This document shows positions 27,667-47,358 of a DNA stretch of 64,000 bases, in pieces. Made by a program: the position numbers and the translations under genes. The first letter of the stretch is position 1. Each line of letters begins with the position of its first letter. This DNA is from a virus. Location: positions 2,550 through 66,549 of the IMG/VR virus record IMGVR_UViG_3300037511_000246, one strand, 5' to 3'. A model generated the notes under the pieces. It was not told where the DNA came from, made no database searches, and saw only the letters and a program-made list of their open reading frames with translations.

Positions 27667-27933
27667 TCACTTTCCTCCTGAGCATGTGTTGTAGAGTATG
27701 GCAAGTATGATCATAGTGATGATCCAGATAACGATGCGCCACGGAATGAATCGTTTCGGTTCTGCTGGCGGTTGCTCGATAACATTCGGAGCCGCCATCT
27801 GCTCGAGATCCTCGAGGGTGAAGTTGACCACTGCACGACAGTCAGCGCACATCGACTGGCGCTGTGCCAGTGTGCTGATGTCGACCCATGTACCAGTGCA
27901 TCCAGGCTTCGTATGGAACGTGTCACCAGTCAT
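27667..27933 (-). CDS. small membrane protein with CxxC
   Basis: 88 aa. 'CADCRAV' and a C-terminal TM 'IVIWIITMIILAILY'. Confidence 0.35.
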   Translation of the reverse strand: MTGDTFHTKPGCTGTWVDISTLAQRQSMCADCRAVVNFTLEDLEQMAAPNVIEQPPAEPKRFIPWRIVIWIITMIILAILYNTCSGGK

Positions 27934-28460: not shown

Positions 28461-29527
28461 TCTGATCTCCCAGCACGACGCGCTATCCACTGCATAGCTG
28501 CCAAGCGCCAGTCGCACTCCACCATGTTCTCAGACAAGTGATCGATGGCAGCCTGTGCTCTCATCACTTTCGTATTGCGATCTGTTTCAGAATGGTAGAT
28601 AACCCATGCTTCTCGCATAGGGACAGCCACTTTCTTGAAGAATGGTACTTTTGGAGACGCACCATTGCAGAAGTCTTCGCACTCTTGCAACCATATCTTC
28701 CAGTCCAGATGGTTGAAGCCACTCATCAATGGAAACGGTTGCATGCCTGTCTGGTAGTAGTCCTTGTCCCAGTCCGGACTGTTGATGATCTTTCTCCATG
28801 TCTCCTGCGCTTGGTCTGTGTAGACATGGAAGCTGTCACTGATCTGACGGTATACACCTACCGGCACATCGATTGCAGAAGCTATGAACTCTTGCAGCAC
28901 AGAGAACTGAACGACGTTGGCCCCATACGCACCCCATAGAGCATCGTTCGAACGGCAGCATACCGTCATGTTGAGATGGCCGTCACGAATCTTGAACATG
29001 ACCATATCATTGCACGGCATGTCTTTGGTCTTGGCACCGAGATCGACTGCCGGGTCCCAGATACTGAGAACGACTTGCCGTGTGCTGTGGTCTTGCGACA
29101 GCAGTTCGATCGCGACCCTAACCTGATCGATGGCATCAACTTCACCAACGGTAGCGTCTGGGATAAAGTGGTTGCGTAGTCGAAATCCGTAGGGCGCATG
29201 GAAGGTTGAGCCATTGTCCGAATAGTTCCGCATTTGCTTGTTGTATGCCGCAAGGAATTCGACGTCAGCACGGCCAGCCAGAATCCATAGCGCTTCCATC
29301 AGGTGGAAGAACGGATTGGCGTCACGATGAGGAGACCAGAGCACTCGTTCTGTCGGCTCGCTGTACTCCGTTGTCACAACACCTCGGTACTCCATTGTCT
29401 GCATACCGCGTGGACTGATATCGCGCCAGAAGTAGTCGCGACGAGGATCCTTCATCGACATGCGCAACTTTGAGAGCGCTTGATTCACATTGCGAACCCT
29501 GATAATGGTAGCTTCTTCGAATCTCAT
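28457..29527 (-). CDS. thymidylate synthase-family enzyme (ThyA homolog; candidate dUMP hydroxymethylase or thymidylate synthase)
   Basis: 'DMPCNDMVMFKI' (catalytic Cys) and 'CRSNDALWGAYGANVVQFSVL' align with ThyA '[20 protein letters not shown]', giving Asn at the uracil-specificity position. 356 aa with an N-terminal extension. RBS 'aaggag'. Confidence 0.65.
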   Translation of the reverse strand: MRFEEATIIRVRNVNQALSKLRMSMKDPRRDYFWRDISPRGMQTMEYRGVVTTEYSEPTERVLWSPHRDANPFFHLMEALWILAGRADVEFLAAYNKQMRNYSDNGSTFHAPYGFRLRNHFIPDATVGEVDAIDQVRVAIELLSQDHSTRQVVLSIWDPAVDLGAKTKDMPCNDMVMFKIRDGHLNMTVCCRSNDALWGAYGANVVQFSVLQEFIASAIDVPVGVYRQISDSFHVYTDQAQETWRKIINSPDWDKDYYQTGMQPFPLMSGFNHLDWKIWLQECEDFCNGASPKVPFFKKVAVPMREAWVIYHSETDRNTKVMRAQAAIDHLSENMVECDWRLAAMQWIARRAGRSE

Positions 29528-30228
29528 ATGTGCGCTCCTTTGTTTGAATTGGCGAGGTCATCTGCGAGTGATTGCGGCGTGCCCCACTCATGGAGCATGT
29601 CGCGGTTGATTTTGACAGCGAGCTTAGTGCCGTGCAGATGTTCGAAGACACCTGACAAGTAGAACTCCCCATTGGCTGCTGGCGCTGCGCGTATATTGGC
29701 GGTGACAAGATCTTTGGCGCTTCGAAAGTAGAATGCTCCGGCTAGTGCATACGGACTGATGGGATTCTTCTCCGCACCCTTTGAGAAATAAGGATACCCA
29801 TCGACAAACCCGTATCTGTCATGGTCGGCTTCGAAGACCAGTGCTGCGGCTGACGCGTGTGCGCGCCGTGCTCTGATTACCATGTACATTGGGGCATATC
29901 CGTCGAAGGCATTGTCACTATTGACTACAAGAAGCTCATCTTCTGGGCTTACTGCGTTAGCCATCATAGCTACGGTACAGGCTTGTCCAGTGCTGTCTAC
30001 AATAGGCGTCACGGTATACAGTGGTAGCGCTTCTTCGAAGCGTTCTCGATCATCAAACTTGACACCGACTGTAGTATGTAACGCTACGCCTACGGACGCT
30101 ACGATATGCTCGATCATAGTGGCTCGCTTGCCACGCCATTCAATCTGCATGAGACCTTTTGGAGTTGTGTATCCGGCGTCTTTGAAGCGCTGGCTCTCAC
30201 CAGCAGCAGGGATCAACAGGTGCAGCAT
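29524..30228 (-). CDS. sugar-phosphate nucleotidyltransferase
   Basis: N-terminus 'MLHLLIPAAGESQRF' is the NTP-transferase signature (MurU/GlmU/RmlA-like). ATGA-coupled. The track ORF begins 3 codons earlier at a GTG. Confidence 0.6.
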   Translation of the reverse strand: MLHLLIPAAGESQRFKDAGYTTPKGLMQIEWRGKRATMIEHIVASVGVALHTTVGVKFDDRERFEEALPLYTVTPIVDSTGQACTVAMMANAVSPEDELLVVNSDNAFDGYAPMYMVIRARRAHASAAALVFEADHDRYGFVDGYPYFSKGAEKNPISPYALAGAFYFRSAKDLVTANIRAAPAANGEFYLSGVFEHLHGTKLAVKINRDMLHEWGTPQSLADDLANSNKGAHI

Positions 30229-30686
30229 ATTGTCCACTCCGTACTTGCGCGCATGAGAACAGCGGCGGCAGCGTTGTCCTCAAACATTATGCCTGGAACA
30301 TTGCTCTCATTCATTGTACGAATCTTGGCTTCCAACGTCAGTGAGCAAAGCCATTCTACTTGTGCAATGATTGGAAAATGGTAAGCGAGTATTTGCAGAG
30401 CATTGTAAGAAGCGCCGGTAAAGATTCTTGGCGCACGACCACCAATAGCCAGCGCTGTGAACAGCGACATCAGCGGCAGCGGGCGTACTTCTTTCGCATG
30501 CTCCATATAGTATTGCTGCTTCAAACTGTGAACGCGCTGAGCTTCTATCGCGTCACCTTTGAACCACTCTGCGAATGTTTTGCCAAAGAAGTCCTCCGGA
30601 GGAGGGTGGCCGGCATGTGTGTAGGCATCGCGAATCACCTTGCGCGTGTCTACCAATGTGCCATCTAAATCGAAAGCGTATTGCAT
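30213..30686 (-). CDS. HAD-superfamily phosphatase
   Basis: Motif I 'FDLDGTLVDT'. RBS 'acggag'. 157 aa. Confidence 0.65.
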   Translation of the reverse strand: MQYAFDLDGTLVDTRKVIRDAYTHAGHPPPEDFFGKTFAEWFKGDAIEAQRVHSLKQQYYMEHAKEVRPLPLMSLFTALAIGGRAPRIFTGASYNALQILAYHFPIIAQVEWLCSLTLEAKIRTMNESNVPGIMFEDNAAAAVLMRASTEWTICCTC

Positions 30687-31435
30687 ATGTACTCCGTCGT
30701 CACTCGGTCTCTGCAGAAGGCGTCATGGATAGCGGCTACGCGCCCTTCAGCCCAGAGTCGCTGTGGTGCGCGCTCTTCAGTGTCTGCATACGGTATGATG
30801 CGCATGCAATGGACCATGCACCAGAACCATGCGCGCCGCACTGTCATGGGGTCCATGCCAATGGTAAGGCTATGAGCACACACCTTGCCGTCGTACGACC
30901 AGCCGGCAATGGACTTCTCCCAGCCGACTGCAGACTGCAACAGCTTGCCCATGTCCACCGTCCAGTGCGATGGTATGTATGGCGACCGCAACGGGTCTAT
31001 CAACACGAAGTCATAGCCTCTAATCATAGTATTGGAAAGCGTCGGGTCGCCGTGGATAACTTGCCAGTTAGCCTGATCCAGCCACATACTGCACAGCATC
31101 GGTTCGATGTCGATACTCGTCACGTCATGGAAGCGCTGTGCCAGCAGATACTCCCAGTTGCGCGGTTGTCCGCTTGTGTCTTGTATCGGCCATACATGCC
31201 GCGCCAATAACTGCCGCACATACTTCATGGTCCGATAGGCTGTGTCTATGTGCAGTGGTCTCAGCTCTTCAAGCCGCTCCATACGATACGAGTCACCGAA
31301 CTTCTCGAGTACCTTTGGACACACCTTGTTGAGTGGGTAGGTCTCACAGAGCTTACCTTGCTCGAATACTCCCTCACCTGTCTTGATGACCGATGCCTCT
31401 TCAATCTGAATAGTCGCACGACTGAACCCCTTCAC
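30665..31435 (-). CDS. APH/choline-kinase-fold kinase (anomeric sugar kinase-like)
   Basis: 'QVIHGDPTLSNTMI' (HGDxxxxN catalytic loop) and 'FVLIDP' (Mg-binding D). GTG start with RBS 'aagggag'. Confidence 0.55.
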   Translation of the reverse strand: MKGFSRATIQIEEASVIKTGEGVFEQGKLCETYPLNKVCPKVLEKFGDSYRMERLEELRPLHIDTAYRTMKYVRQLLARHVWPIQDTSGQPRNWEYLLAQRFHDVTSIDIEPMLCSMWLDQANWQVIHGDPTLSNTMIRGYDFVLIDPLRSPYIPSHWTVDMGKLLQSAVGWEKSIAGWSYDGKVCAHSLTIGMDPMTVRRAWFWCMVHCMRIIPYADTEERAPQRLWAEGRVAAIHDAFCRDRVTTEYICNTLSI

Positions 31436-32274
31436 TTCTGACTCCCTTGATATGCCTTCTTCCAGTAACAGATCACCTCTTTGCGAGGTGTGCTGAGTTT
31501 GTAATCCTTCTCCACGACCTTTACCAGTCCTGGATGCAGCTTCGCCAGCTTCTCGGCATCCTTATTCGATGCCTCCATTGTGCGTTCTAGCTTGGCACCA
31601 CCGGGACCAGCACCATAGGACTGATCCACGCAGAACTCTGCCAGCACGCGGTTCTGGTAGCCGGCACTAAGTAGCTGCAGACAATAGTCCATGTCCTCAC
31701 GATGCTCGATGCGTCCCAGTTCGCAGTGCTTCAGCAAGACATCAGTATTGTAGCCAAGCGCATAGATCATCCGGCTGTTAGGCTCCCACCGCAGGAAGGC
31801 TTTCTCATCAGCCTTGCCGATGTTCGTACCTTCGCCGCGTTCCTTTGCCATGCGGTTGCGCTGCATGGATTCGAGATTGTTGTTGCCCTGCCTTGCCGAG
31901 ACACCGACATGGGCAAACTTGCCGAGCTTGCGTTCCAGAAGCTGGAGCATCAGATCGACATCGTCCTCATCACACTGCTTGAGGAAGGTCGGTGTCTTGT
32001 TGTAGTCGCGGCGACAGAAGCGCAGGTCATCATCGAACATTACAATCCGCTCGCCAGCGAACTCCTTGATGATCCATGCGCGCTTCTGAGCAATGCTCTT
32101 GATACGGTCTGGTACGACCATGACCTCGATGTCAGTCTTCTTGGTTTTCTTCTGAAGACCGGGCGCGTCTTCGTCATCGCACACCAGCACAGTCCTGTCG
32201 TGCCACGACTCTGGAATGCATCGCAGCGTGAACTGTCGGTCGTTGCGACGATAGGTCGGTATGATGATTTTCAT
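31432..32274 (-). CDS. GT-A fold glycosyltransferase (paralog 2)
   Basis: Start at 'MKIIIPTYRRN...', one nt overlapped with the upstream TAA. DxD 'MFDDDLRF'. The track ORF extends upstream to 32502 but without this N-terminal signature. Confidence 0.55.
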   Translation of the reverse strand: MKIIIPTYRRNDRQFTLRCIPESWHDRTVLVCDDEDAPGLQKKTKKTDIEVMVVPDRIKSIAQKRAWIIKEFAGERIVMFDDDLRFCRRDYNKTPTFLKQCDEDDVDLMLQLLERKLGKFAHVGVSARQGNNNLESMQRNRMAKERGEGTNIGKADEKAFLRWEPNSRMIYALGYNTDVLLKHCELGRIEHREDMDYCLQLLSAGYQNRVLAEFCVDQSYGAGPGGAKLERTMEASNKDAEKLAKLHPGLVKVVEKDYKLSTPRKEVICYWKKAYQGSQK

Positions 32275-33059
32275 TATAAGATCCCCGTAGCTTGGGCATT
32301 CACCAGCCTTGCGTTGTCCAATGCGTTGCGCCATTTGAACGTGGCGCCGATGCCGGAAATGGAGTGCTTCGTTTCGCGCAGCGTCACATACTGCGGCCAT
32401 GCCTTTGCGAGCCGCTTGAACGCGGCGCGCTCCACTGCCACGGTCCTGAACTTCTTCAGACCACCGACCGCGTAGTATTTGGCATCCTTGCTGTACTCGC
32501 ACAGCACGCCAGCCGGCAATCCAATGGACAGCAGTTGCAGATGCATATCATGCTCTTGGTTCAAAGGCATCCTAAAGTTCGGCACCGGCACCTTCAGCTT
32601 TCTGGCTCTGGCTTTGATCATCTTGATGTTGTAGCCGAGAACCTGATTGTAGCGCCCATCAACCTTCACGCCACGAGGCTGGTGCTGTGACATGAACTTG
32701 TCGATGAGACCAGCGTGTGCATAGGCGCTCAGAACATGGTTCATGGTGACCAGCATACGCATGACTTCTTTCGAAGAGCTCTTCTTGAACGATCCATCAC
32801 GCTTGCGATCGAAGAACGTGAGATCATCATCGAGCATCACCATGCGGCCAGCACGGCACTTCTCGAAGAGCTTGGCGCGTTTCTCGCATAGAGTCTTGGC
32901 CTGTATGACTATGACACGACTACCCCACTCAGCGCGGTAGTCTGGCAGTGTTGGATCATTAGCAGCGACGACGATCTTGAAGTTGACACCTGCCGCAACC
33001 AGAAGCTCGGCTGTCTTCTGATTGTGCGGGCGACCACGACTTGGGATGTAGATCTTCAT
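32274..33059 (-). CDS. GT-A fold glycosyltransferase (paralog 1)
   Basis: 'MKIYIPSRGRP' and 'MVMLDDDLTFF' parallel paralog 2. ATGA-coupled; RBS 'gaggatgaaga'. Confidence 0.55.
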   Translation of the reverse strand: MKIYIPSRGRPHNQKTAELLVAAGVNFKIVVAANDPTLPDYRAEWGSRVIVIQAKTLCEKRAKLFEKCRAGRMVMLDDDLTFFDRKRDGSFKKSSSKEVMRMLVTMNHVLSAYAHAGLIDKFMSQHQPRGVKVDGRYNQVLGYNIKMIKARARKLKVPVPNFRMPLNQEHDMHLQLLSIGLPAGVLCEYSKDAKYYAVGGLKKFRTVAVERAAFKRLAKAWPQYVTLRETKHSISGIGATFKWRNALDNARLVNAQATGIL

Positions 33060-33439
33060 TCTTCATCCTCGTCTTCATCGTCGTTATCATCGCGCGCATA
33101 GCGCCGACTATCCAGCTTGCCAGCAGCCGGAAGGCCGAGCAACTCGCGCTCACGCTTCGACAGTTTCGAGAGCGCTTTGTTGGCGTCTTCAGTCTCAGCA
33201 CGGCGCGCATCTTCAGCGGCCTTGCGCTTGGCATCGCGCTTCTTGTGGCGCTCCCACCATGCTTCGAACTGTTTGCGCGTGATGCCTGCCTCTTTCCAGT
33301 TGATCTTGGCAACCACATTAGGCAGACGGCCTAATGCTTCGAGTGCAGTCATGAGAGCACATGCGATGGCCGGAGCCATGCGGTCGTCGCGCTCTTCTTG
33401 ACTTGGCGGGTAAGGTACGCCACCATCAGTACATGGCAT
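33056..33439 (-). CDS. hypothetical protein with acidic C-terminus
   Basis: RBS 'taggag'. 127 aa. Confidence 0.4.
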   Translation of the reverse strand: MPCTDGGVPYPPSQEERDDRMAPAIACALMTALEALGRLPNVVAKINWKEAGITRKQFEAWWERHKKRDAKRKAAEDARRAETEDANKALSKLSKRERELLGLPAAGKLDSRRYARDDNDDEDEDEE

Positions 33440-33449
33440 TGTGAATCTC

Positions 33450-33638
33450 CTACCTTGTTCTTACGACGCTCAGAATGACAGAGGTGCCTTTGGTGAACTC
33501 CGCCAGCATCTTCGGCATGTCTTCTTCAGTGTCAACAGTGAAGTTGATGGTCTCCATGTTGCCATCATGAATGTGCGTAAGCGCATAGCGCAACGCTGTG
33601 CCGTTGTCAGTCTTTTTCTTGCCGATCTTGATTTCCAT
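33450..33638 (-). CDS. hypothetical small protein
   Basis: RBS 'caggagacg'. 62 aa. Confidence 0.35.
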   Translation of the reverse strand: MEIKIGKKKTDNGTALRYALTHIHDGNMETINFTVDTEEDMPKMLAEFTKGTSVILSVVRTR

Positions 33639-33656
33639 TACTGTCGTCTCCTGTCG

Positions 33657-33911
33657 TTATTGAGTCGTCTGTGGCACTGCTCGATGTTCACGTAGCGTGC
33701 CAACCCTGCCACGCTGACTAACAGCGTAAGCGTTCAATTCTCGCCAGAACTTTAGTTTGCGTTCCACCTCGTTCTCCGGCACACCACTATGAAGTACCGA
33801 CCAAGCAGTCCATACGACTTCTGAAGAGAAGTGGCATCCGTTGTAGCATCGTCTTTGCGGGTCTGTGTTGACCTCTATCTGCAACCTTGTCTCTATGGTG
33901 AACTTAGCCAT
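33657..33911 (-). CDS. hypothetical small protein
   Basis: ATGA-coupled to the upstream gene. 84 aa. Confidence 0.35.
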   Translation of the reverse strand: MAKFTIETRLQIEVNTDPQRRCYNGCHFSSEVVWTAWSVLHSGVPENEVERKLKFWRELNAYAVSQRGRVGTLREHRAVPQTTQ

Positions 33912-34894
33912 CACTCATCGTCCTTGTAGTGGGTTACGTGACGGTCGATTGGAGGCCTGTACCTGCTGCGCGGCTTGCCCTCGCCATTCTTAACGCGCAT
34001 GTACTTGTCGAACTCGCAAAGCGAATGTTCGATCTCACGCATCTCGAACGGCACTCCTTCCTTGGTCATATCGAGATGCTTCTGCAAATCCTTTGGCACC
34101 ATCGTGAGAAGCTCACGCATGGCACTGTTCCAGTCGATTGGCTTGCCACCCTTCTTTTCAGCACTGCCATACAACAGCCGACGGATGCCGCGCTTTGCGC
34201 CCGGACCTGGATTGGCCCAAGCCAGTACGTCGCGCGCATTGTTCAGCACCTTGGTGAACCGCAGGTCGCACGCGATCTCGTAGGCCACAAAGCTACCGAC
34301 AGTCGGAATGCACTGCAGGATCTCGACAGCCTTCTCCATCGACTTCTTGCGCTTGATCTTGTTGGCTAACCTGATCTTGCGCTTGTAGGCATAGTCCACA
34401 GCCTCGCAGATAACCTGGATCTTCGACTCTGTGCGATTGCCATTCGACACGATGTATGCGCCGGTAAAGATCTGCTCATGATCTTCGTCGCGACGCTGCT
34501 CGAGAATCTTGATGGCCTTCTTGAGGTTCCAGTCCTTGCGACCGGTGATGCCATAGAACAATGCGTCGTAGGTTTCCGGCAGGTTGAACAGCCGGAACAT
34601 GATGCAGTGAAAAAGGATATCGCTGTTCTTCAGCTTCTTGCCACGGTTCAGCAAGTGGACATAGCGATCTTGCCATGCCAGCGACACTCGATCAAGCTGC
34701 CGGTACACGTTGGTGAACTTGTACTCGGTGAGGATCTTGTCCTTGGTCCAAGGGTGCGGTTCTTTCTCCTTGAACCGCTTCAGGTATATTGCATGGCGCT
34801 CTCGCATCCAATACCAGAACATCTTCAGCTGAGAAGCGCGGAACTTGAACTTCGGTTTCTTTGTCTTAGCCATTGGATGCACCATCGTCATCAA
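33911..34894 (-). CDS. hypothetical basic protein (327 aa), possible DNA-modification accessory enzyme
   Basis: Long ORF immediately upstream of the glycosylation cluster. No P-loop. Conserved-looking blocks 'FTNVYRQLDRVS', 'VGSFVAYEIACDLRFT'. Start codon ambiguous (34873-34894). Confidence 0.4.
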   Translation of the reverse strand: MMTMVHPMAKTKKPKFKFRASQLKMFWYWMRERHAIYLKRFKEKEPHPWTKDKILTEYKFTNVYRQLDRVSLAWQDRYVHLLNRGKKLKNSDILFHCIMFRLFNLPETYDALFYGITGRKDWNLKKAIKILEQRRDEDHEQIFTGAYIVSNGNRTESKIQVICEAVDYAYKRKIRLANKIKRKKSMEKAVEILQCIPTVGSFVAYEIACDLRFTKVLNNARDVLAWANPGPGAKRGIRRLLYGSAEKKGGKPIDWNSAMRELLTMVPKDLQKHLDMTKEGVPFEMREIEHSLCEFDKYMRVKNGEGKPRSRYRPPIDRHVTHYKDDE

Positions 34895-35057: not shown

Positions 35058-35127
35058 GACCTCCCGTTAAAGTAGAAGGCCGCATTGCTGCGGCCCTCTA
35101 TCCTGCACCATTGGTACAGTGCCCCGA

Positions 35128-36516
35128 TCAGTACTTCAGGAAGCCGTACTTCGCCAGGAACGGTACGAACTTCTTGACATCCTTGGCCGAGATGTCCTCG
35201 TCCGCGGCCTTCTTGACCAGCGCCTTCAGCGTGATCGTCTTGGCAGCACGCACCAGTTCCAGCAGCTTGGTCTTGCTGCCCTTCTTCGGACGCTTCTTCA
35301 CGAAGCTGATCTTGGTGCTGTCTTCCAGCTTGCCCAGCTTCTCCTTCTTCGCCGGCTTGTCCTTGACCTTCTTGTCGGCCTTCTTGGCCTTGCCCTTTTT
35401 GCCTTTCTTCACTTCGTCATCCTCCTCATCGTCGGTGTCTTCATCTTCGTCATCTTCGTCATCTTCGTCATCGCCCTTGGCTTTCTTGGCCTTGCCCTTC
35501 TTGCCCTTGGCGAAACCCTTGGACTTGGACTTCTTGCCTTTCGGCTTCTCGTCCTCGTCGTCCTCGTCGTCCTCGTCGTCCTCGTCATCCTCCGAGTCTT
35601 CATCGTCCTCGTCGTCTTCCGAGTCCTCGTCGTCGTCCTCGTCATCCTCGTCGTCATCCTTGGCCTTGGACTTCTTGCCGGACTTGGCCTTGGGCTTGGA
35701 CTTCTTGCCTTTCGGCTTCTCGTCCTCTTCATCGTCCTCCGAGTCTTCGTCCTCGTCGTCATCCTCGGAGTCTTCGCCCTCATCGTCCTCGTCATCGGAC
35801 TCGTCGTCCTCATCCTCATCCTTGTCGCCGGCAGCCTCTGCCGCAAGTGCGAGACGCTTCTCTTCCAGGTCTTCATCGGTCATGAACCGCATTTTCTTGT
35901 CCTCCTTAGATGGACGCTTGCGTGATTCGACGGGCCAATCATCAAGCACAGTGCGGTCCGTCAGCCGCAAGGTGCCCTTCTTCTCGACGGCCTTCAATGC
36001 CAGAAGCATCACGTGCCGTGCGAAATGGAAAGCTTCGGTCCATGACTTTGACGACAGCCCTAGCGGGCCTTCATCAGCTGTCAGACCTTTGTATGCCAGC
36101 GCTCCGAGTTCGTTCCATGAGCAGGTGCTCAGTATGGATACGATCTCGAACATGAACTGAGGCTCTGCCTGCTGCTTTGGCAGATACTCGCGATACTGTG
36201 GCGGCTTCTTTTCCTTGAGCTTACACAGATCGACGAAGGCATCGAATAGATTGTTCGTGAAGACATGCACCTGCTCTTCCTTGAAGAGTGCCTGCCGCAG
36301 GTCTTCACCGCGCAGACTGGTCGCCAGCTTGCGCCGCGACTTCTTGCTGGCCTTGGCTTCGTCGCGCATGCGCTTAGACCGCTTGCCTGCCCTGCGGTAC
36401 TTCTTGAGGTCCTCGTCAGTCGACGGCACAAACCCACTCTTATCCTTCTTTGGCGGGTCTGGATCGAACGGAGGATCCTCCGACTTCTTCTTACGCCGCT
36501 TTTTTCCGAAAGCCAT
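35128..36516 (-). CDS. large protein with ~200-aa N-terminal domain and ~230-aa tail of alternating poly-Asp/Glu and poly-Lys blocks
   Basis: 462 aa. RBS 'ggagaag'. Blocks such as 'DDEDDEDDDEDSEDDEDDEDSEDD' alternate with 'KPKGKKSKSKGFAKGKKGKAKKAKG'. Confidence 0.6.
   Translation of the reverse strand: MAFGKKRRKKKSEDPPFDPDPPKKDKSGFVPSTDEDLKKYRRAGKRSKRMRDEAKASKKSRRKLATSLRGEDLRQALFKEEQVHVFTNNLFDAFVDLCKLKEKKPPQYREYLPKQQAEPQFMFEIVSILSTCSWNELGALAYKGLTADEGPLGLSSKSWTEAFHFARHVMLLALKAVEKKGTLRLTDRTVLDDWPVESRKRPSKEDKKMRFMTDEDLEEKRLALAAEAAGDKDEDEDDESDDEDDEGEDSEDDDEDEDSEDDEEDEKPKGKKSKPKAKSGKKSKAKDDDEDDEDDDEDSEDDEDDEDSEDDEDDEDDEDDEDEKPKGKKSKSKGFAKGKKGKAKKAKGDDEDDEDDEDEDTDDEEDDEVKKGKKGKAKKADKKVKDKPAKKEKLGKLEDSTKISFVKKRPKKGSKTKLLELVRAAKTITLKALVKKAADEDISAKDVKKFVPFLAKYGFLKY
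35400..35830. repeat. GAN/GAY trinucleotide-like coding repeat (acidic tract)
   Basis: tcgtcctcgtcgtcctcgtcatcctc... Produces spurious mirror ORFs on the plus strand. Confidence 0.6.
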
Positions 36517-37987
36517 ATTGCTTCTCCATTGCTTTGAGGATGCTCTGTTGTGTCTTGTCTTTGCTGCGAATGGCGAATCTCATCGTCTCATCCACAGTGT
36601 TGCGCACCAGAATACGATACAGCAGCACGCGTCGGCGCTGGCCCTGTCGCCACACTCTCTGATAGAACTGCTCGTAGTTCTCAAGGTTCCATGTCATCGC
36701 ATAGTAGATAACGATGCCGCCCTTGCCTTGCAGGTTCAGTCCGTGTGCGATGGACTCTGGGTTGCCGAACACCACTGGATGCTCGCCACGTTCCCACTCG
36801 TCGATGATCTTATTGACTACACTGTCCTTTGTGCCACCGTCGATCAGCGGTGCGTTGATGAAGTTGTTGGGCGCGTCATGCTTCTTGAAGTAGTTCTGTA
36901 TGCGCTTGTAGTCGTGCTTGAACTCCACCGCTACCAGCGCAGGCTCACCATTCAGCTCTTCGAGCAAGTCCAGCAGGTTCTCTTCCTTCTCGTTGTGGAT
37001 GGTCAAGAACTTTCTGTTCTTCTTGTTGCGAACCTTCTCTTTGTCAACCTTCTCATTCGACAGGTAACGGCCACGCTCGTCAATGAAGATGCCACCATTG
37101 GCAATCTGTCGCAGCTTACCACTGGCGACCGCAGCGTTGGCCGCGACGATCTCATTGCTCTGCCAGTTGACGATGAACTCCTTCTCGAGTTCGTCGTACA
37201 TGGCGCGAGCCTTCTTCGGCAGCTCAACCCATCTGTTGATGACCTTGAGTGGTGGCAGGTCTAATTGATCGTGCCCGTAGCGTATGATCAGTGGTGCTAT
37301 GGCCTTGAAGATTCGCTTCTCAGCACCGTCTTGTGGAACCCACTCATAGCCCTTGTACCCTGCGGGCATGAAGAACCGATTGCGGTACTGTGTGATGAAC
37401 TTGCCGAGCGACGCGCCAAGATCCAGGATGTACACCTGACTGAACAGGTTCATCAGACCACGGGGCGCAGGTGATCCAGTGCCAATGTACCGACGTATGA
37501 ACAGCGGCAGTATCTTCTTCAGAGCGCGGAAACGCTTGGTGACAGAGTTGCGCAGCCTTGACGATTCGTCGATCGCCAGCATGATCTTGCCCTTGCTCTT
37601 CAGCAGTCGCTTCTGCTTGGCAAGCCACGGCAGTCCTTCGAAGTTCATCAGATACAGTTCGGCGTCCTCTTCGAGCGCCGCTTTCCGGTTACCATGTACT
37701 ATGCTGATACGGATGTCTTCGAGACCCTTCCATTTCTTGACTTCTCGAGGCCAGACGTTCTGTACGATCTTCTTTTTCGATATGACGAACAGGCAGTCTA
37801 CAAGACCAGCGGCCCGCAAGATCTTGAAGATCCATAGCCAGATAACGGTCTTGCCTAGACCCGGTGCCAAGAATAAGCCAGCCTCTGGTCTAGTGACTCC
37901 GAACTCGATTGCTGTCTTTTGGTAGGGCTTTGGTTTGAATAATTTTCTCGCAGATTGCAATCGCTTTCTTCGCCGTGTAGACCACAT
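36491..37987 (-). CDS. SNF2-family (DEAD/DEAH-like) helicase
   Basis: 'LAPGLGKT' Walker A, 'LAIDESSRLRN' DExx box, helicase C 'HGLNLQ...QRVWRQGQ'. Start taken at 'MWSTRRRKRL'; the track ORF extends to 38149. Confidence 0.7.
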   Translation of the reverse strand: MWSTRRRKRLQSARKLFKPKPYQKTAIEFGVTRPEAGLFLAPGLGKTVIWLWIFKILRAAGLVDCLFVISKKKIVQNVWPREVKKWKGLEDIRISIVHGNRKAALEEDAELYLMNFEGLPWLAKQKRLLKSKGKIMLAIDESSRLRNSVTKRFRALKKILPLFIRRYIGTGSPAPRGLMNLFSQVYILDLGASLGKFITQYRNRFFMPAGYKGYEWVPQDGAEKRIFKAIAPLIIRYGHDQLDLPPLKVINRWVELPKKARAMYDELEKEFIVNWQSNEIVAANAAVASGKLRQIANGGIFIDERGRYLSNEKVDKEKVRNKKNRKFLTIHNEKEENLLDLLEELNGEPALVAVEFKHDYKRIQNYFKKHDAPNNFINAPLIDGGTKDSVVNKIIDEWERGEHPVVFGNPESIAHGLNLQGKGGIVIYYAMTWNLENYEQFYQRVWRQGQRRRVLLYRILVRNTVDETMRFAIRSKDKTQQSILKAMEKQYGFRKKAA

Positions 37988-38237
37988 AAGTTGGAATCCC
38001 CATTGCCTTGAAACGTCGGCGGTAATACTGTTGGATCTTCGTAGGTTCCTTACCGTCGCGCTTGAACTCGAATGCGACTGGTATCGCAAACGGCTTCGAT
38101 GGCAACAGCACCAGCTTGTCGCTACGTCCCACCTTACCATAGCGCCCAAACATTGTCAACTTGATAACCTCCGCATCCCAGCGTCTCTCGGCTTCGTCCT
38201 TGAACTTGCGTTCTTCTACTGCCTCGTCCTTACTCAC
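37890..38237 (-). CDS. VRR-NUC domain nuclease
   Basis: 'GKVGRSDKLVLLP...AFEFKRDGKEPTKIQQYYRRRFKAMGIPTYVV' has VRR-NUC character. Typical partner of phage SNF2 helicases. Confidence 0.55.
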   Translation of the reverse strand: MSKDEAVEERKFKDEAERRWDAEVIKLTMFGRYGKVGRSDKLVLLPSKPFAIPVAFEFKRDGKEPTKIQQYYRRRFKAMGIPTYVVYTAKKAIAICEKIIQTKALPKDSNRVRSH

Positions 38238-40180: not shown

Positions 40181-41101
40181 TTACTTACGTTCTTGTGGCA
40201 GATCAACCATCACGCCGTTTGGCAGCATCGGCAGATAGGTTGACACTTGCACGCCATTCCAACGTTCGGCGCGCGTGAGCTCGATCTTCAGCTGGCGAAG
40301 CTTGACTTCGGTTTCCATGCTCTGATTGATCAGCTTGTTGTAGTCCGTCTCACCCTGACCTTCAGCACGGCGCGCATCAGCGCGCAGTATCGCTGCCTGC
40401 TTCTCGCCTTCTGCCTGCGCGATCAATGCTCTGGCACCGGCTTCAGCCTTGATGGACTGTGCTCGCGATTCTTGCTCGATACGATCAGCTTCAGCTTTGG
40501 CCTGCGCAACACGCTGTTGAGTGTTCATCGTGCTCTTGATCTGAGCATCGAAGTCATCTGACCAATCCCAATTCGTAAGACTGATCTGCGTGATCTTCAC
40601 AGGATACAGCTTGGCTTGTTCCGAAGCCGTTGTTCTTGCATCGAGAGCGATCTTGCCGGCACTGCCAGCCAGTTCAAAGATCGTATACTTTCCGATCTCA
40701 GCTTTGATGGCGCTGTAGATAGTGTCATTGACAATACCTTCGAGCTTGCTGCGATTGGTGTACACCTTCACCAGTTCCATGACACGAGACGTATCGTATG
40801 CCCATGTGACTGTGGCACTGACGCCGATCGACTGATTGTCTTTCGATATCGCGCCATCAGACTTCTCAGTGATCACCACTTGCTGCTTGAACGGATCAGC
40901 GCTGACAGTTTCGAAGTGTGAGAACAGCGGTATCTTCATCTGCACGCCGGGACCATACGTCTGATCAGACGCTGTTCCCATCGTCACCTTCACTGCGCGT
41001 TCAGATGGCGATATCACTTCGAAGGAACCGAATATGATGATAAGCAGTATGAGCGCTGCGACACCACCAACGGCCAGTTTGAAAGTCTTCAACGGATTCA
41101 T
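40181..41101 (-). CDS. SPFH/band-7 (prohibitin/HflKC-like) membrane protein
   Basis: N-terminal TM, SPFH core and a C-terminal Ala/Glu coiled coil ('AQAKAEADRIEQESRAQ'). Confidence 0.65.
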   Translation of the reverse strand: MNPLKTFKLAVGGVAALILLIIIFGSFEVISPSERAVKVTMGTASDQTYGPGVQMKIPLFSHFETVSADPFKQQVVITEKSDGAISKDNQSIGVSATVTWAYDTSRVMELVKVYTNRSKLEGIVNDTIYSAIKAEIGKYTIFELAGSAGKIALDARTTASEQAKLYPVKITQISLTNWDWSDDFDAQIKSTMNTQQRVAQAKAEADRIEQESRAQSIKAEAGARALIAQAEGEKQAAILRADARRAEGQGETDYNKLINQSMETEVKLRQLKIELTRAERWNGVQVSTYLPMLPNGVMVDLPQERK

Positions 41102-46041: not shown

Positions 46042-46104
46042 GTTTCCTCCAGTCAAAGGGCGCGGCCTTCAAGCCGCGCCCTTAAGTCAACAGTCGACGA
46101 TCGA

Positions 46105-47358
46105 CTACTTCTTGCCGAAGCGTGAGCCCTTCTTGGACTTCACTTTGCCCTTGCCAGACTTCTTGGAAGGCTTCTCGTCTTCCTCGTCATCTTCATCGTC
46201 TTCGTCATCGTCTTCATCATCGTCGTCATCGTCGTCATCGTCGTCAGCAGCTTTTCGAGAACGCTTGCCTTTGCCGCCAGTGTCTTTCTTACCGCCGCGT
46301 CGCTTGGAAGACTTGCGATCATCTTCGTCATCGTCTTCCTCGTCTTCGTCATCATCCTCGTCGTCTTCGTCATCATCCTCGTCGTCTTCTTCATCGTCCT
46401 CATCGTCTTCTTCGTCGCGCTTGGACTTGCGCTTTTTGCCCTTGCCGCGCTTGGGCTTTTCGTCCTCGTCTTCTTCGTCTTCATCCTCGTCATCCTCCTC
46501 GTCGTCGTCATCATCCTCGTCGTCCTCATCGTCGTCATCACGACGCTTGGACTTCTTGCTGGCCTTGGACTTCTTGTCCTTCTTGCCTTTCTTGCGCGGC
46601 TTGTCGTCATCCTCGTCATCGTCCTCGTCGTCCTCGTCGTCCTCACTGTCATCAGTGCCGTCGAACGGGGTCAGCAGCTGATCGCGAATCTCCTGCTGCT
46701 TGGACTCGATGGCGCGCAGAACTTCCTTGTCCTTGATCTTCTTGTCGATGTCGAAGAGCACGACCGGGTAGTCCTCGTCTTCATCGAACGACAGTTCGAC
46801 AATGACTTCGAAGAACTCCTTGTTGAGGTTCGTGTCGCAGTCCTTGACGAAGGCTGACCAGTGCCGCAGGCTCTTCGGCGGCAGTTCGATGAACGCAATG
46901 TCTGCGTTCTCAACGTCGTCGAGATCATCCGCACTGATGACCGCAAGCCTCCGGCGGTTCTGACACTTGCCAGCAGTGCGTCCGCCCTGATAGGCCATCG
47001 GGCAGTCATCGCACGACTTGGCCTGCGGTGACTTGACGTTGTCGTGCGGTACGAGTTCGTCCTTCTCCATGTCGATGGCGAAGCACTTCGGGATGTTGCC
47101 ACCATCCTTGCTGTAGCCCTTGGCGTAGTAGGTGTTGAGATAGCAGAAATCCACCACCACGACCTTCAGCGTGCGTCCGAGGTTCTCCTGATCCAATGTG
47201 AACCGTCGGCTCTGCAAGCTGATCCTGTTCTCCAGACCGCCACCGCCGGCGGGACCCTTCTCGCGCGCATTGGCACTGCGTTTGGCCTTCTTGCCCATGT
47301 CCTTCTCCCAGTCCTTGTCTTTCGACTTGGACTTCTTCGATGTCTTCTTCATCATCAT
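46105..47358 (-). CDS. large protein with Cys-containing N-terminal domain and ~200-aa alternating poly-acidic/poly-basic tail (ssDNA-binding-like?)
   Basis: 417 aa. N-terminal ~200 aa contain 'CDDCPMAYQGGRTAGKC'. The tail has 'DDSEDDEDDEDDDEDDD' blocks interleaved with 'KPRKKGKKDKKSKASKKSKRR'. Confidence 0.55.
   Translation of the reverse strand: MMMKKTSKKSKSKDKDWEKDMGKKAKRSANAREKGPAGGGGLENRISLQSRRFTLDQENLGRTLKVVVVDFCYLNTYYAKGYSKDGGNIPKCFAIDMEKDELVPHDNVKSPQAKSCDDCPMAYQGGRTAGKCQNRRRLAVISADDLDDVENADIAFIELPPKSLRHWSAFVKDCDTNLNKEFFEVIVELSFDEDEDYPVVLFDIDKKIKDKEVLRAIESKQQEIRDQLLTPFDGTDDSEDDEDDEDDDEDDDKPRKKGKKDKKSKASKKSKRRDDDDEDDEDDDDDEEDDEDEDEEDEDEKPKRGKGKKRKSKRDEEDDEDDEEDDEDDDEDDEDDDEDEEDDDEDDRKSSKRRGGKKDTGGKGKRSRKAADDDDDDDDDDEDDDEDDEDDEEDEKPSKKSGKGKVKSKKGSRFGKK
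46180..46640. repeat. GAN/GAY trinucleotide-like coding repeat (acidic tract)
   Basis: Long runs of tcgtcatc/ctcgtcgtc within 46105..47358. Confidence 0.6.

What the first reader, a model, noticed from the sequence alone, without database searches (positions are those of the whole stretch)
35128..36516. Large protein with extreme alternating poly-acidic / poly-lysine tail (copy 1)
This 462-aa protein has a ~230-aa C-terminal region made of 15-30-residue pure D/E(S) blocks alternating with K/G/A-rich basic blocks, ending in a short ordered C-terminal peptide. At the DNA level this is a long GAN/GAY triplet repeat. This architecture resembles eukaryotic nucleolin or nucleoplasmin-type histone chaperones far more than known phage proteins. 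Candidate roles are DNA mimicry or anti-restriction (an Ocr-like charge pattern), nucleoid remodelling, or a packaged internal protein. The triplet repeats are also candidates for length variation.
Basis: seen in the sequence. Interest (0 to 1): 0.65.

Follow-up and report, generated by a model that had tools for sequence, protein, structure and literature searches.

The report
Helicase-coupled phage protein with charge-block tail
A real phage gene, always fused in expression to an SNF2-type helicase gene, encodes a new kind of protein whose long tail of alternating acidic and lysine-rich blocks is the same kind of tail that many uncultured phages attach to their single-stranded-DNA-binding proteins, so it most likely works as an electrostatic scaffold in phage DNA replication, not as a histone chaperone or an anti-restriction decoy.

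Summary
Window 35128-36516 (- strand) is a 462-aa ORF. Residues 231-395 form four D/E(S/T) blocks (14, 19, 37 and 20 aa) alternating with K/G/A/S/P blocks, followed by an ordered ~65-aa C-terminus. Charge segregation is z = 12.9 against shuffles.

It is a conserved gene. A small, metagenome-only family (~33 cluster representatives among 1.84 billion) shares three parts:
- a confidently modelled helical N-domain with no Pfam, PHROG, PDB or BFVD match;
- a disordered charge-block tail of 33-218 aa;
- a winged-helix-like basic C-domain, which also exists as small stand-alone proteins.

In 9 of 9 genomic contexts the gene directly follows an SNF2-family helicase. In 8 of 9 its start codon lies inside the helicase's last codons. 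It sits in the PolA replication module, upstream of thymidine-hypermodification genes.

"Copy 2" (46105-47358) is not a copy: its N-domain is unrelated, and only the tail type is shared. The same tail grammar ([D/E]n-K-P-basic) occurs in more than 120 viral contigs, mostly on SSBs of at least three families.

Best reading (confidence 0.4): a replication-module adaptor that uses an SSB-type polyampholyte tail. The nucleoplasmin, Ocr and internal-protein readings are not supported. One lineage lost the tail. This is a new protein family and a variant of a known theme.

The parts
35128..36516 (-). p1: complete 462-aa ORF (the stop codon is 35128-35130)
   Evidence: ORF list. Syntenic homologs of 465 aa (59% identity) and 399/363 aa (33% identity) occur in IMG/VR contigs. 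There are 33 genuine family representatives.
36491..36516 (-). 26-nt overlap of the p1 start with the last codons of the SNF2 helicase. The helicase codons ..AME..YGF.. supply GGAG 8-9 nt upstream of T-ATG-G.
   Evidence: Sequence and frames. The same arrangement occurs in L001, L005, L007 and L008. L012, L013 and L014 have overlaps of 14-41 nt.
35887..36435 (-). N-terminal domain, aa 28-210. It comprises the F-V-P-S-T..E-L-K motif, a long basic helix (aa 34-64), a helical bundle (aa 70-175), a beta-hairpin (aa 176-185) and L-D-D-W-P-V.
   Evidence: AlphaFold with a 26-sequence alignment gives mean pLDDT 84.6. Invariant or near-invariant residues are hydrophobic, aromatic or basic, with no catalytic-looking set. 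There is no Pfam, PHROG, NCBIfam, PDB or BFVD match.
35332..35826 (-). Charge-block tail, aa 231-395. It is a disordered polyampholyte with 88 D/E, 39 K/R and net charge -49.
   Evidence: Charge segregation is conserved in 22 of 23 full-length relatives, with z of 7-15.
35719..35820 (-). Acidic blocks 1a and 1b (aa 233-246 and 248-266)
35659..35718 (-). Basic block 1 (aa 267-286: KPKGKKSKPKAKSGKKSKAK). The acid-to-base junction reads EDEKPKGKKSK.
35548..35658 (-). Acidic block 2 (aa 287-323, 37 aa)
35473..35547 (-). Basic block 2 (aa 324-348). It has the same EDEKPKGKKSK junction 57 aa after the first, indicating a duplicated unit.
35413..35472 (-). Acidic block 3 (aa 349-368)
35332..35412 (-). 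Basic block 3 (aa 369-395; K/A/P-rich, H1-tail-like). It leads into the C-domain.
   Evidence: It is equivalent to the basic N-tails of the stand-alone homologs.
35131..35331 (-). C-terminal domain, aa 396-462. It is basic (net +12) and winged-helix-like.
   Evidence: AlphaFold pLDDT is 76-86 with an H-b-H-H-b layout. It is conserved in 26 relatives. It occurs as stand-alone 79-113-aa proteins. Only sub-threshold HTH/wHTH matches were found.
36491..38149 (-). SNF2-family ATPase ('helicase'), translationally coupled upstream partner gene. Its probable true start is near 37987.
   Evidence: Pfam SNF2-rel_dom, Helicase_C and ResIII; phrog_62 at 1e-118. It lies upstream of p1 in 9 of 9 contexts.
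33911..34894 (-). PF18723 (HMUDK_hel / aGPT-Pplase1-type) thymidine-hypermodification gene, the downstream neighbour
   Evidence: Pfam E = 3.8e-60. The homolog of M6 gp55.
46105..47358 (-). p2: a second, unrelated 417-aa protein with the same tail type (aa 234-417). It is a probable SSB-like replication protein.
   Evidence: All three acid-to-base junctions read D(D/E)KP.

Best explanation
p1 is a clade-specific accessory protein of the phage DNA-replication module. It most likely acts as an adaptor or scaffold that works with the SNF2-family ATPase.

**What is shown**
- It is a conserved three-part protein.
- The first part is a folded, non-enzymatic-looking helical N-domain of unrecognised fold.
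- The second part is a disordered tail of segregated acidic and lysine-rich blocks.
- The third part is a small basic winged-helix-like C-domain, which also exists as an independent small protein attached to a lysine/alanine/proline tail.
- Its translation start is built into the end of the SNF2 helicase gene.
- Its tail follows the same grammar as the tails of many phage single-stranded-DNA-binding proteins, and of a second replication-module protein (p2) in the same genome. That grammar is an acidic run, then (K/R)-P, then a basic run, repeated.

**What is inferred**
- The N-domain docks on the SNF2 ATPase, because the two are made in coupled amounts.
- The basic block plus C-domain holds on to DNA.
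- The tail does what acidic SSB tails are known to do. It makes multivalent, salt-sensitive electrostatic contacts with the DNA-binding surfaces of replisome and recombination proteins.
- The interleaved lysine blocks contact DNA or the acidic blocks of neighbouring molecules.
- The net effect would be to concentrate or tether the SNF2 translocase, and possibly the downstream base-modifying enzymes, at replicating, SSB-coated phage DNA. This may happen through co-assembly of proteins that carry the same kind of tail.
For: **The gene is real and conserved.**
- The ORF is listed.
- Syntenic homologs keep all three parts.
- Exhaustive HMMER finds 35 representatives, 33 of them genuine.

**The tail.**
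- It is disordered and strongly charge-segregated.
- That pattern is conserved in 22 of 23 relatives even though the tail sequences themselves do not align.

**The N-domain.**
- It is a confident model with pLDDT 84.6.
- Only hydrophobic, aromatic or basic residues are invariant.
- It has no known relative.

**Coupling to the helicase.**
- In 9 of 9 contexts the gene directly follows the SNF2 helicase.
- In 8 of 9 the genes overlap by 14-41 nt.
- In the five overlaps inspected at sequence level, the start codon and Shine-Dalgarno lie inside conserved helicase codons.

**Genomic context.**
- The window carries primase-helicase, ligase, PolA, PD-(D/E)XK and Rv2179c-like exonucleases and SNF2.
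- PolA + RecB-like + SNF2-like is a common phage replication arrangement (PMC6302109).

**The tail is an SSB-type tail.**
- The pattern [D/E]5-K-P-x-K-K matches more than 120 IMG/VR contigs.
- All 80 loci held have the motif in frame in an ORF, and 44 of 80 have at least 3 acidic blocks.
- None is a p1 or p2 homolog.
- Five of six representatives tested, from the five largest clusters (35 of 80 ORFs), are SSBs: phrog_1192 / Pfam gp32, phrog_15004 at 1e-93, and phrog_7778 / DUF669.

**The second tailed protein, p2.**
- Its N-domain is unrelated to p1's.
- It has the same junction at 3 of 3 transitions.
- Its AXL3 homolog lacks a tail, while its L002 homolog has one.

**The C-domain.**
- It is an autonomous module found with basic tails.
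- Its weak hits are consistently HTH/wHTH families.

**Established knowledge.**
- Acidic C-tails of E. coli SSB recruit partner proteins, and SSB phase-separates through its disordered linker (PMC7584906, PMC7145534).
- The equivalent roles of the T4 gp32 and T7 gp2.5 tails come from my own knowledge.
Against: - No interaction was tested. Gene overlap shows co-expression, not binding.
- The winged-helix assignment rests on secondary structure and sub-threshold profile hits (best E about 1e-3 to 0.05). DNA binding is an inference.
- One lineage (P0033; three sequences, at least 4 contigs) keeps the N-domain, C-domain and synteny with only a 33-aa, non-segregated linker. The tail is therefore not required for the core function.
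- Classical SSB tails are purely acidic and end in a conserved tip. p1's tail is interleaved with basic blocks and ends in a folded domain.
- p2 is not shown to be an SSB. Profile-profile probability against the SSB clusters is below 1%, and its PHROG families have unknown function.
- The family occurs only in genomes that also carry the PF18723 / TAGT / TS-like hypermodification cluster downstream. A role in DNA modification, not replication, cannot be separated out.
Confidence: 0.4

Rival explanations
1. Host-directed DNA mimic, by analogy with SPO1 Gp44 or T7 Ocr. The basic C-domain anchors p1 on DNA. The acidic blocks imitate nucleic acid and sequester host DNA-binding proteins such as RNA polymerase, nucleoid-associated proteins, or restriction/BREX enzymes.
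For: - The architecture parallels SPO1 Gp44, which has a folded DNA-binding motif plus a 67-aa, 57% D/E disordered 'DNA mimic' region and binds RNAP (PMC8208478).
- The tail is 53% D/E with net charge -49.
- The C-domain is winged-helix-like.
Against: - There is no homology to Gp44, Ocr or ArdA. PDB profile searches do not retrieve 6L6V, and Pfam finds none.
- Gp44's acidic region has no basic residues, whereas p1's is interleaved with lysine blocks that would partly neutralise a mimic.
- The gene sits deep in the replication module and is translationally coupled to a helicase. It is not among the host-takeover or early genes.
- The phage already protects its DNA through hypermodification genes.
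- The same tail is mostly carried by SSBs.
Confidence: 0.15
2. A chromatin-like role. p1 would be an H1-like DNA-coating or compacting protein (lysine blocks plus winged helix) with built-in acidic counter-ions. Alternatively it would be an acidic 'chaperone' that accepts basic DNA-bound proteins stripped off by the SNF2 translocase, as a remodeller-plus-chaperone pair analogous to ATRX-DAXX.
For: - Coupling to an SNF2-family ATPase is invariant.
- The last ~95 aa equal a stand-alone 'basic K/A/P tail + domain' protein. That is the domain order of linker histones, reversed.
- There is a weak, recurrent Pfam hit to the Daxx N-terminal helical bundle in 5 of 26 members, best E = 0.006.
Against: - There is no linker-histone, nucleoplasmin or NAP domain in Pfam.
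- SNF2 genes of this PHROG family are common in phage replication modules without any p1-like partner, for example AXL3.
- No basic client protein has been identified.
Confidence: 0.15
3. The tail is a functionally loose spacer or solubility 'bristle' between two working domains. It would be free to expand by unit duplication, with charge pattern kept only to avoid aggregation or collapse.
For: - Tail length ranges from 33 to 218 aa and the sequences do not align.
- There are recent internal duplications, including a 30-aa exact repeat in P0011 and an 11-aa junction repeat in p1.
- One lineage has lost the tail while keeping everything else.
Against: - A neutral spacer would not keep extreme charge segregation (z of 7-15) in 22 of 23 lineages that have diverged to 25-30% identity in the N-domain.
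- It would not share a junction grammar with unrelated carriers.
- It would not recur specifically on replication proteins.
Confidence: 0.15
4. A DNA-hypermodification accessory. p1 would bind newly replicated 5-hmdU-containing DNA and recruit or organise the PF18723, glycosyltransferase and other base-modifying enzymes encoded just downstream.
For: - In 8 of 8 contexts that extend downstream of p1, a PF18723 gene and TAGT glycosyltransferases follow it. The ninth context, L014, ends at the contig edge just after p1.
- Phages with the same helicase family but no hypermodification cluster (AXL3) lack p1.
Against: - Well-studied phages with PF18723 and 5-HMUDK clusters (M6, PhiJL001) have no p1-like gene.
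- In vitro reconstitution of those pathways needed no such factor (PMC8989533).
- PF18723 is separated from p1 by 3-4 small genes in two contexts, whereas the helicase overlap is retained.
Confidence: 0.1
5. Packaged internal or ejected virion protein.
For: Only the general precedent that some phages package highly charged internal proteins (my own knowledge).
Against: - The gene is in the replication/modification arm on the - strand. The structural genes, including the 1383-aa tape-measure-sized ORF, are on the + strand at 1-26 kb.
- It is translationally coupled to a helicase.
- There is no PHROG structural hit.
Confidence: 0.03

Closest known systems
Acidic C-terminal tails of phage and bacterial SSBs (T4 gp32, T7 gp2.5, E. 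coli SSB). This includes the uncultured-phage SSBs found here with long charge-block tails (gp32-like / phrog_1192, phrog_15004, DUF669-like / phrog_7778).
   Same: - It is a disordered, strongly acidic C-terminal extension on a replication-module protein.
- In the IMG/VR SSBs the grammar is identical: acidic run, then (K/R)-P, then lysine run, repeated 2-10 times.
- SSB tails are known to mediate partner recruitment and condensation (PMC7584906, PMC7145534).
   Different: - p1 has no OB-fold or gp32 domain. Its N-domain is predicted to be helical and matches no SSB profile.
- The tail is internal and is followed by a folded basic domain instead of an acidic/aromatic tip.
- The classical gp32, gp2.5 and EcSSB tails are short and lack lysine blocks.
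SPO1 Gp44 (DNA-binding motif + disordered acidic DNA-mimic region; inhibits host RNAP)
   Same: - It is a phage protein that combines a small DNA-binding-type fold with a long D/E-rich disordered region.
- SPO1 also has 5-hmU DNA (PMC8208478; the SPO1 base comes from my own knowledge).
   Different: - There is no sequence relationship.
- Gp44's acidic region is 67 aa with no basic residues. p1's is 165 aa with interleaved lysine blocks.
- Gp44 is a host-takeover gene, whereas p1 is coupled to a replication helicase.
Eukaryotic acidic-tract nuclear proteins (nucleolin, nucleoplasmin/NPM1, UBF, HMGB1 tail, DAXX poly-D/E)
   Same: - They have runs of 15-40 D/E, often with Ser in CK2-like context, alternating with basic stretches.
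- The tracts are disordered.
- They have DNA-protein or chromatin-associated functions, and DAXX partners an SNF2 ATPase (ATRX). This is from my own knowledge.
   Different: - None of their defining folded domains is present.
- Bacteria have no histones.
- The resemblance is compositional only.
Linker histone H1 and bacterial H1-like lysine/alanine/proline-rich DNA-binding proteins
   Same: p1's last ~95 aa and the stand-alone homologs P0042-P0052 combine a K/A/P-rich tail with a small winged-helix-like domain.
   Different: - There is no Pfam Linker_histone match.
- The tail is N-terminal to the domain.
- DNA binding is untested.
T7 Ocr / ArdA DNA-mimic anti-restriction proteins
   Same: Very high negative charge density.
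   Different: - Ocr and ArdA are folded dimers whose surface carboxylates copy the B-DNA geometry (PMC2806950, PMC3439906, abstracts).
- p1's tract is disordered and half-neutralised by lysine blocks.
- p1 is not in an early or anti-defence position.
- There is no profile match.

Membership tests
Nucleoplasmin / nucleolin-type histone chaperones | Defining folded domain: the nucleoplasmin core beta-sandwich pentamer, or nucleolin RRMs plus a GAR region | tested here: not met
Nucleoplasmin / nucleolin-type histone chaperones | Long acidic tracts alternating with basic stretches | tested here: met
   Four D/E blocks of 14-37 aa alternate with K-rich blocks, and segregation is z = 12.9.
DAXX (ATRX-partner chaperone) | Daxx helical bundle or histone-binding domain | tested here: not met
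Ocr / ArdA DNA mimics | Folded protein whose surface carboxylates mimic the B-DNA backbone; Ocr or ArdA sequence family | tested here: not met
   The acidic tract has no predicted secondary structure and low pLDDT. There are no Pfam or PADLOC matches.
Ocr / ArdA DNA mimics | Anti-restriction activity | not testable with these tools
   This needs plating assays of unmodified phage on type I R-M or BREX hosts expressing p1.
Phage/bacterial SSB with acidic tail | ssDNA-binding core (OB fold / gp32 / gp2.5 / DUF669) | tested here: not met
   The p1 N-domain is predicted to be helical with one hairpin. There is no Pfam or PHROG SSB hit. hhalign against five tailed-SSB clusters gives probability <= 0.3%.
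Phage/bacterial SSB with acidic tail | Disordered acidic C-terminal extension used for partner binding | tested here: inconclusive
   The tail type and junction grammar are shared with SSBs of at least 3 families. In p1 the tail is internal and lacks an acidic tip. Partner binding was not tested.
SPO1 Gp44-like DNA-anchored mimic | Sequence or structural homology to Gp44 (PDB 6L6V N-domain) | tested here: not met
   Profile searches of the N- and C-domains against all PDB sequences at E <= 10 do not retrieve 6L6V.
SPO1 Gp44-like DNA-anchored mimic | DNA-binding fold plus a purely acidic disordered region that binds RNAP | tested here: inconclusive
   p1 has an HTH/wHTH-like domain and an acidic IDR, but the IDR contains 24% K/R. 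RNAP binding is not testable here.
Winged-helix / HTH DNA-binding domains (C-terminal domain) | H1-S1-H2-H3-S2 topology and a significant match to an HTH/wHTH family | tested here: inconclusive
   The topology is predicted at pLDDT 76-86. All recurring profile hits are HTH/wHTH families but fall below their cut-offs: HTH_IclR 8.6e-4, MCM C-terminal WH 0.05-0.17, MecI 0.2-0.3, plus PheRS_DBD3, TrmB, HTH_20 and MarR.
Linker histone H1 | GH1/GH5 winged-helix globular domain (Pfam Linker_histone) | tested here: not met
   There is no Linker_histone hit in 26 + 25 domain sequences at E <= 1.

The most novel reading that the evidence does not exclude
Blocky acidic/lysine tails could be a shared 'address code' in a whole set of uncultured phages. 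On this reading, proteins that carry them co-condense electrostatically with DNA into a membrane-less replication and base-modification factory inside the bacterial cell. The carriers seen so far are SSBs of several families and, here, p2 and the SNF2-partner p1. This would be a bacterial-virus counterpart of charge-block partitioning in nucleoli and transcriptional condensates. In it, p1 is the adaptor that brings an SNF2 translocase into the compartment.
Probability: 0.15. Interest if true: 0.8.

Novelty: new variant of a known kind. Interest (0 to 1): 0.5.

Why it matters
- **The N-domain is unexplored.** The p1 family has no counterpart in Pfam, PHROGs, NCBIfam, the PDB or BFVD, yet it models confidently. 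It is a new fold-level target.
- **It is tied to SNF2 ATPases, whose role in phages is poorly understood.** SNF2-like genes are among the commonest neighbours of phage PolA (PMC6302109), but what they do there is unclear. A conserved, translationally coupled partner gives a direct experimental handle, through pull-downs and co-structures.
- **The tail is exceptional for a phage.** A survey of 102 phage proteomes found no low-complexity region longer than 115 aa (PMC6821194). Here the region is about 165 aa.
- **The same tail grammar recurs on unrelated replication proteins across many viral contigs.** This points to a general and so far undescribed electrostatic module in phage replication. 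It is testable with simple charge-scramble controls.
- **If condensate formation were shown,** it would extend charge-pattern-driven compartmentalisation to small tailed phages.

Tried and rejected
1. **Near-identical or distant GenBank phages.** megablast of 30-42 kb and tblastn of the p1 N-domain found nothing.
2. **Word-seeded search of 5.8 billion proteins with the single N-domain.** Nothing was found. The exhaustive HMMER search was needed.
4. **Fold searches.**
   - BFVD gave a best E of 0.9.
   - Foldseek on the poor full-length model was uninformative.
   - afdb50 was unavailable.
5. **'p1 and p2 are copies'.** Rejected. The N-domains are unrelated, and the tail DNA matches only compositionally.
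6. **'Pure triplet repeat prone to slippage'.** Rejected, because synonymous codons are mixed and perfect runs are short.
7. **DNA-level reading** (homopurine tract, triplex, or R-loop origin). Rejected. The longest purine run is 13 nt, third codon positions follow the genome's GC3 bias, and protein-level features are conserved.
8. **The + strand poly-Ser ORFs** (35111-36160 and 35119-35925). These are mirror images of the GAN tract, not genes.
9. **p1 N-domain as a diverged version of the proteins that follow the helicase in AXL3.** hhalign probability is below 1%.
10. **Prophage or host assignment.** No relative was found in 185,579 species' genomes.
11. **p2 as a detectable SSB.** hhalign against the tailed-SSB clusters was negative, and PDB and NCBIfam gave nothing.
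12. **Defence or anti-defence libraries.** PADLOC hits only the SNF2 domain of the helicase.
13. **Thymidine-hypermodification papers.** They do not mention any such protein.
Full report
**1. The observation**

Window 35128-36516 on the - strand is an ATG-initiated ORF of 462 aa.
- It contains 88 K, 76 D and 56 E. It is 52% charged, with net charge -23.
- Residues 233-246, 248-266, 287-323 and 349-368 are D/E blocks that contain only occasional S or T.
- Residues 267-286, 324-348 and 369-395 are K/G/A/S/P blocks.
- The charge layout is +16 (aa 1-70), -2 (aa 71-230), -49 (aa 231-395) and +12 (aa 396-462).
- Blockiness exceeds 200 shuffles of the same residues by 12.9 SD.
- AlphaFold gives no structure for the tract and a confident small C-terminal domain at aa 410-462, pLDDT 76-86.

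The DNA is GAN-rich but uses all four D/E codons.
- The longest perfect repeats are 4 x 9 nt.
- Purine runs are at most 13 nt.
- It is therefore a cryptic repeat, not a slippery one.
- The poly-Ser ORFs on the opposite strand are mirror artefacts.

**2. It is a conserved gene family**

GenBank phages, Pfam, PHROGs, NCBIfam and PADLOC give nothing for p1. An exhaustive HMMER search with the N-terminal 232 aa finds 35 representatives among 1.84 billion.
- 33 of them are genuine.
- All those looked up come from metagenome assemblies, and none carries a name or a Pfam domain.
- No relative was found in one genome from each of 185,579 prokaryotic species.

All full-length members share the same plan:
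- an M-G-F-x-K N-terminus;
- an F-V-P-S/T-T-x-E-E-L-K motif;
- a helical domain ending in L-D-D/E-W-P-V..R-K-R-x-S-K-E-D;
- a charge-block tail;
- a ~60-aa domain with consensus ..KVK.R..GG.K.KLL.LIPKKGI.LK.L...AKE.GI...KVK.W.....K.GY.K.

The tail region is 33-218 aa long and does not align between distant members. Its charge segregation is nevertheless kept in 22 of 23 (z of 7-15).

The exception, P0033 (317 aa), is real.
- It has three distinct sequences on at least 4 contigs.
- It keeps the same synteny.
- It nests beside long-tailed relatives, so secondary loss is the simplest reading.

Several tails show recent duplication of whole acid-plus-base units. Examples are a 30-aa exact repeat in P0011, and EDEKPKGKKSK occurring twice, 57 aa apart, in p1.

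**3. The folded parts**

*N-domain.*
- With a 26-sequence alignment it models at mean pLDDT 84.6.
- The model has a long basic helix, a helical bundle and one beta-hairpin.
- Its invariant and near-invariant residues are Y108, F121, W134, L191, W194, F29, T33, K99, P106, A162 and R201. They look structural or binding-related, not catalytic.
- A weak recurrent Pfam hit to the Daxx N-terminal bundle was therefore dropped.

*C-domain.*
- It gives only sub-threshold hits, but these are consistently HTH or winged-helix families.
- Its profile retrieves small stand-alone proteins of 79-113 aa. These consist of a K/A/P/T-rich basic tail followed by the same domain, in phage-like contexts.
- p1's last ~95 aa therefore equal one autonomous 'basic tail + domain' module. 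DNA binding is a reasonable but untested inference.

**4. Genomic context**

The - strand arm of the window carries, in order:
1. a primase-helicase (DUF3854 / DUF5906);
2. a NADAR protein;
3. a UDP-glucose-dehydrogenase-like protein;
4. an AAA_5 ATPase;
5. a DNA ligase;
6. p2;
7. PolA;
8. an Rv2179c-like exonuclease;
9. a Band-7 protein;
10. a PD-(D/E)XK nuclease;
11. an SNF2-family ATPase;
12. p1;
13. a PF18723 gene (the M6 gp55 type);
14. two TAGT glycosyltransferases;
15. a nucleotidyl-transferase;
16. a thymidylate-synthase-like gene;
17. a YfbR-like gene.

This is a PolA replication module followed by a thymidine-hypermodification cluster.

In nine independent contexts p1 immediately follows the SNF2 gene. 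The nine are the window, L001/L015, L002, L005/L006, L007, L008, L012, L013 and L014.
- In eight of them the genes overlap by 14-41 nt.
- In the five overlaps inspected at sequence level, the helicase's conserved final codons (..A-M-E-x-x-Y-G-F/I-R) contain both a GGAG 8-9 nt upstream and the ATG of p1.
- This dual coding also explains the conserved M-G-F start.

PF18723 is always downstream where the contig extends that far, but in two contexts it is separated from p1 by 3-4 small genes.

Related phages separate the two associations only in part.
- Stenotrophomonas phage AXL3 has a collinear replication module and a 41%-identical helicase. It has neither p1 nor a hypermodification cluster.
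- M6 and PhiJL001 have the PF18723 cluster but no p1 and no adjacent helicase.
- The tightest and only invariant link is therefore to the SNF2 gene. The link to hypermodification cannot be excluded.

**5. The tail type is shared, and it is an SSB-type tail**

*The second tailed protein, p2 (46105-47358, 417 aa).*
- Its N-domain is unrelated to p1's.
- It belongs to PHROG families of unknown function.
- Its homolog in AXL3 has no such tail, but its homolog in L002 does.
- The p1 and p2 tails are not copies of each other.
- They do share a grammar. The acid-to-base transition reads (D/E)(D/E)(K/R)-P in 3 of 3 p2 junctions, 2 of 3 p1 junctions, and most relatives.

*Survey of IMG/VR with the back-translated pattern [D/E]5-K-P-x-K-K.*
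- By my own estimate, about one or fewer would be expected for ~1e11 bases of uniform composition. The tool does not state the size of the collection.
- In all 80 loci held, the motif is in frame in an ORF, and 44 of them have at least 3 acidic blocks.
- None is a p1 or p2 homolog.

*Who carries the tails.* Clustering gives groups of 16, 7, 4, 4 and 4 ORFs, plus smaller groups and singletons. Five of the six representatives tested from those groups are ssDNA-binding proteins of at least three families:
- phrog_1192 / Pfam gp32;
- phrog_15004, at E = 1e-93;
- phrog_7778 / DUF669.

Long charge-block tails are thus a recurrent appendage of phage SSBs, an exaggerated form of the classical acidic SSB tail.

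*p2 in this light.* p2 sits where an SSB would be expected, and no other SSB was recognised in the ORFs scanned. It is probably the SSB of this phage. That is not shown: profile-profile comparison with the SSB clusters was negative.

**6. Mechanism**

What is shown:
- co-expression with an SNF2 ATPase;
- a position in the replication module;
- a binding-type N-domain;
- an SSB-type polyampholyte tail;
- an autonomous basic winged-helix-like end module.

What is inferred (confidence 0.4): p1 is an adaptor.
- The N-domain holds the SNF2 ATPase.
- The end module holds DNA.
- The tail makes the multivalent, salt-sensitive contacts that acidic SSB tails make with the DNA-binding surfaces of replisome and recombination proteins. 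This role is established for E. coli SSB (PMC7145534, PMC7584906). For T4 gp32 and T7 gp2.5 it rests on my own knowledge.
- The lysine blocks add DNA contacts or inter-tail contacts.
- Two tail-bearing proteins in one phage suggest co-assembly.

Rivals:
- a Gp44/Ocr-like decoy for host proteins (0.15; PMC8208478);
- an H1-like or chaperone-like 'chromatin' role with the SNF2 remodeller (0.15);
- a largely inert spacer (0.15; supported by the P0033 loss, opposed by the conserved pattern);
- a hypermodification accessory (0.10);
- a packaged protein (0.03).

**7. Comparison and novelty**

p1 is not a member of any known family. Every membership test on a folded domain failed or was inconclusive. 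What it resembles functionally is the disordered tail of SSBs and, more loosely, SPO1 Gp44 and eukaryotic acidic-tract proteins.

The new elements are:
- the protein family and its N-domain fold;
- the conserved translational coupling to a phage SNF2 ATPase;
- the placement of an SSB-type charge-block tail, about 165 aa long, on a non-SSB. This exceeds the longest low-complexity region (115 aa) found in a survey of 102 phage proteomes (PMC6821194).

I rate it a new variant of a known kind, with interest 0.5. It is a solid, testable oddity with a moderate-confidence mechanism, not a categorical surprise.

Noticed in passing
window 46105-47358 (-): p2 is a 417-aa protein with an even more extreme charge-block tail: aa 234-417, net charge -55, segregation z = 16.4. 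Its N-domain is unrelated to p1's (phrog_27714/23155, unknown function). Homologs in AXL3, KPP25, Xp15 and Rhizobium phages are 'hypothetical'. The AXL3 homolog has no tail and the L002 homolog has one. The C-terminal tip GSRFGK(K) is conserved. It is possibly this phage's SSB.
   Followed up: partly
L021-L100 (IMG/VR contigs), e.g. L095 3370-4593, L026 2519-3760, L022 3033-4283, L087 7247-8593, L045 5057-5962: Long alternating acidic/lysine tails with a (D/E)n-K/E-P-basic junction are common on uncultured-phage SSBs of at least three families. Some are near-perfect tandem units, for example about 7 copies of DDDEDDEPPKKKKVPV in L095 and 6 copies of DDDDEDEKPKKK in L026. Some end in SSB-like aromatic/acidic tips (..FDEDDDNW, ..NAWDDE, an internal DDIPF). 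I found no description of this in the papers searched.
   Followed up: partly
P0042-P0052; loci L016-L020: These are small stand-alone proteins of 79-113 aa. Each is a Lys/Ala/Pro/Thr-rich basic N-tail followed by the p1 C-terminal domain (consensus YKVKKQF.GGVR..F.KAIP..GATL..IAKKAGV...KA.GYA.WLAANGYLTRV), which gives an H1-like layout. They sit among dense small ORFs. In L020 the gene precedes an AAA_5 ATPase like the one at window 51633-52823.
   Followed up: partly
window 27930-34894 (-), plus 56120-56965: The thymidine-hypermodification cluster is unusual. It combines a TS-like dUMP hydroxymethylase candidate (28457-29527), a YfbR-like HD nucleotidase, a PF18723 gene (33911-34894), two TET-associated-type glycosyltransferases without any TET (32274-33059, 31432-32502), a MobA-like nucleotidyl-transferase (29524-30237), a HAD-like protein and a UDP-glucose-dehydrogenase-like gene. 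Relatives add a radical-SAM/SPASM enzyme. This suggests a sugar-bearing 5-hmdU derivative, reminiscent of base J. Base J synthesis in trypanosomes also involves an SNF2-domain protein (my own knowledge).
   Followed up: no
window 36491-36535 (-), and the same place in L001, L005, L007, L008: The helicase's conserved C-terminal codons (A-M-E-x-x-Y-G-F/I-R) double as the Shine-Dalgarno (GGAG) and start codon (T-ATG-G) of p1. This dual coding explains the conserved M-G-F N-terminus of the family.
   Followed up: yes
window 35111-36160 (+), 35119-35925 (+), 46040-46681 (+): Long poly-Ser or Leu/Val-rich ORFs lie on the opposite strand of both tails. They are mirror images of the GAN/AAG codon tracts and would be false gene calls.
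   Followed up: yes
window aa 233-368 of p1; also P0001, P0005, P0007: Ser or Thr recurs inside the acidic blocks in a casein-kinase-2-like context (..DSEDD.., ..ESDDE.., ..DTDDE..). No protein kinase was identified in the window.
   Followed up: no
window 40181-41101 (-); L005 2273-3708; L012 998-1219; L013 7474-7815: A Band-7/SPFH protein lies inside the replication module of the window. CsrA-family genes occur in several related contigs. Both are unusual cargo for a phage replication arm.
   Followed up: no
window 37890-38237 (-): A 115-aa ORF overlaps the annotated 5' end of the helicase ORF. By eye it has a VRR-NUC-like motif (..FEFKRDGKEPTKIQ..), but it has no Pfam or NCBIfam hit. The helicase probably starts at M55, near 37987, as in L001.
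   Followed up: partly
window 50734-52823 (-), 60954-61547 (-): An AAA_5 (MoxR-like) ATPase sits next to a DUF7192 protein, and there is a NADAR-domain protein. Their function in this phage is unknown.
   Followed up: no
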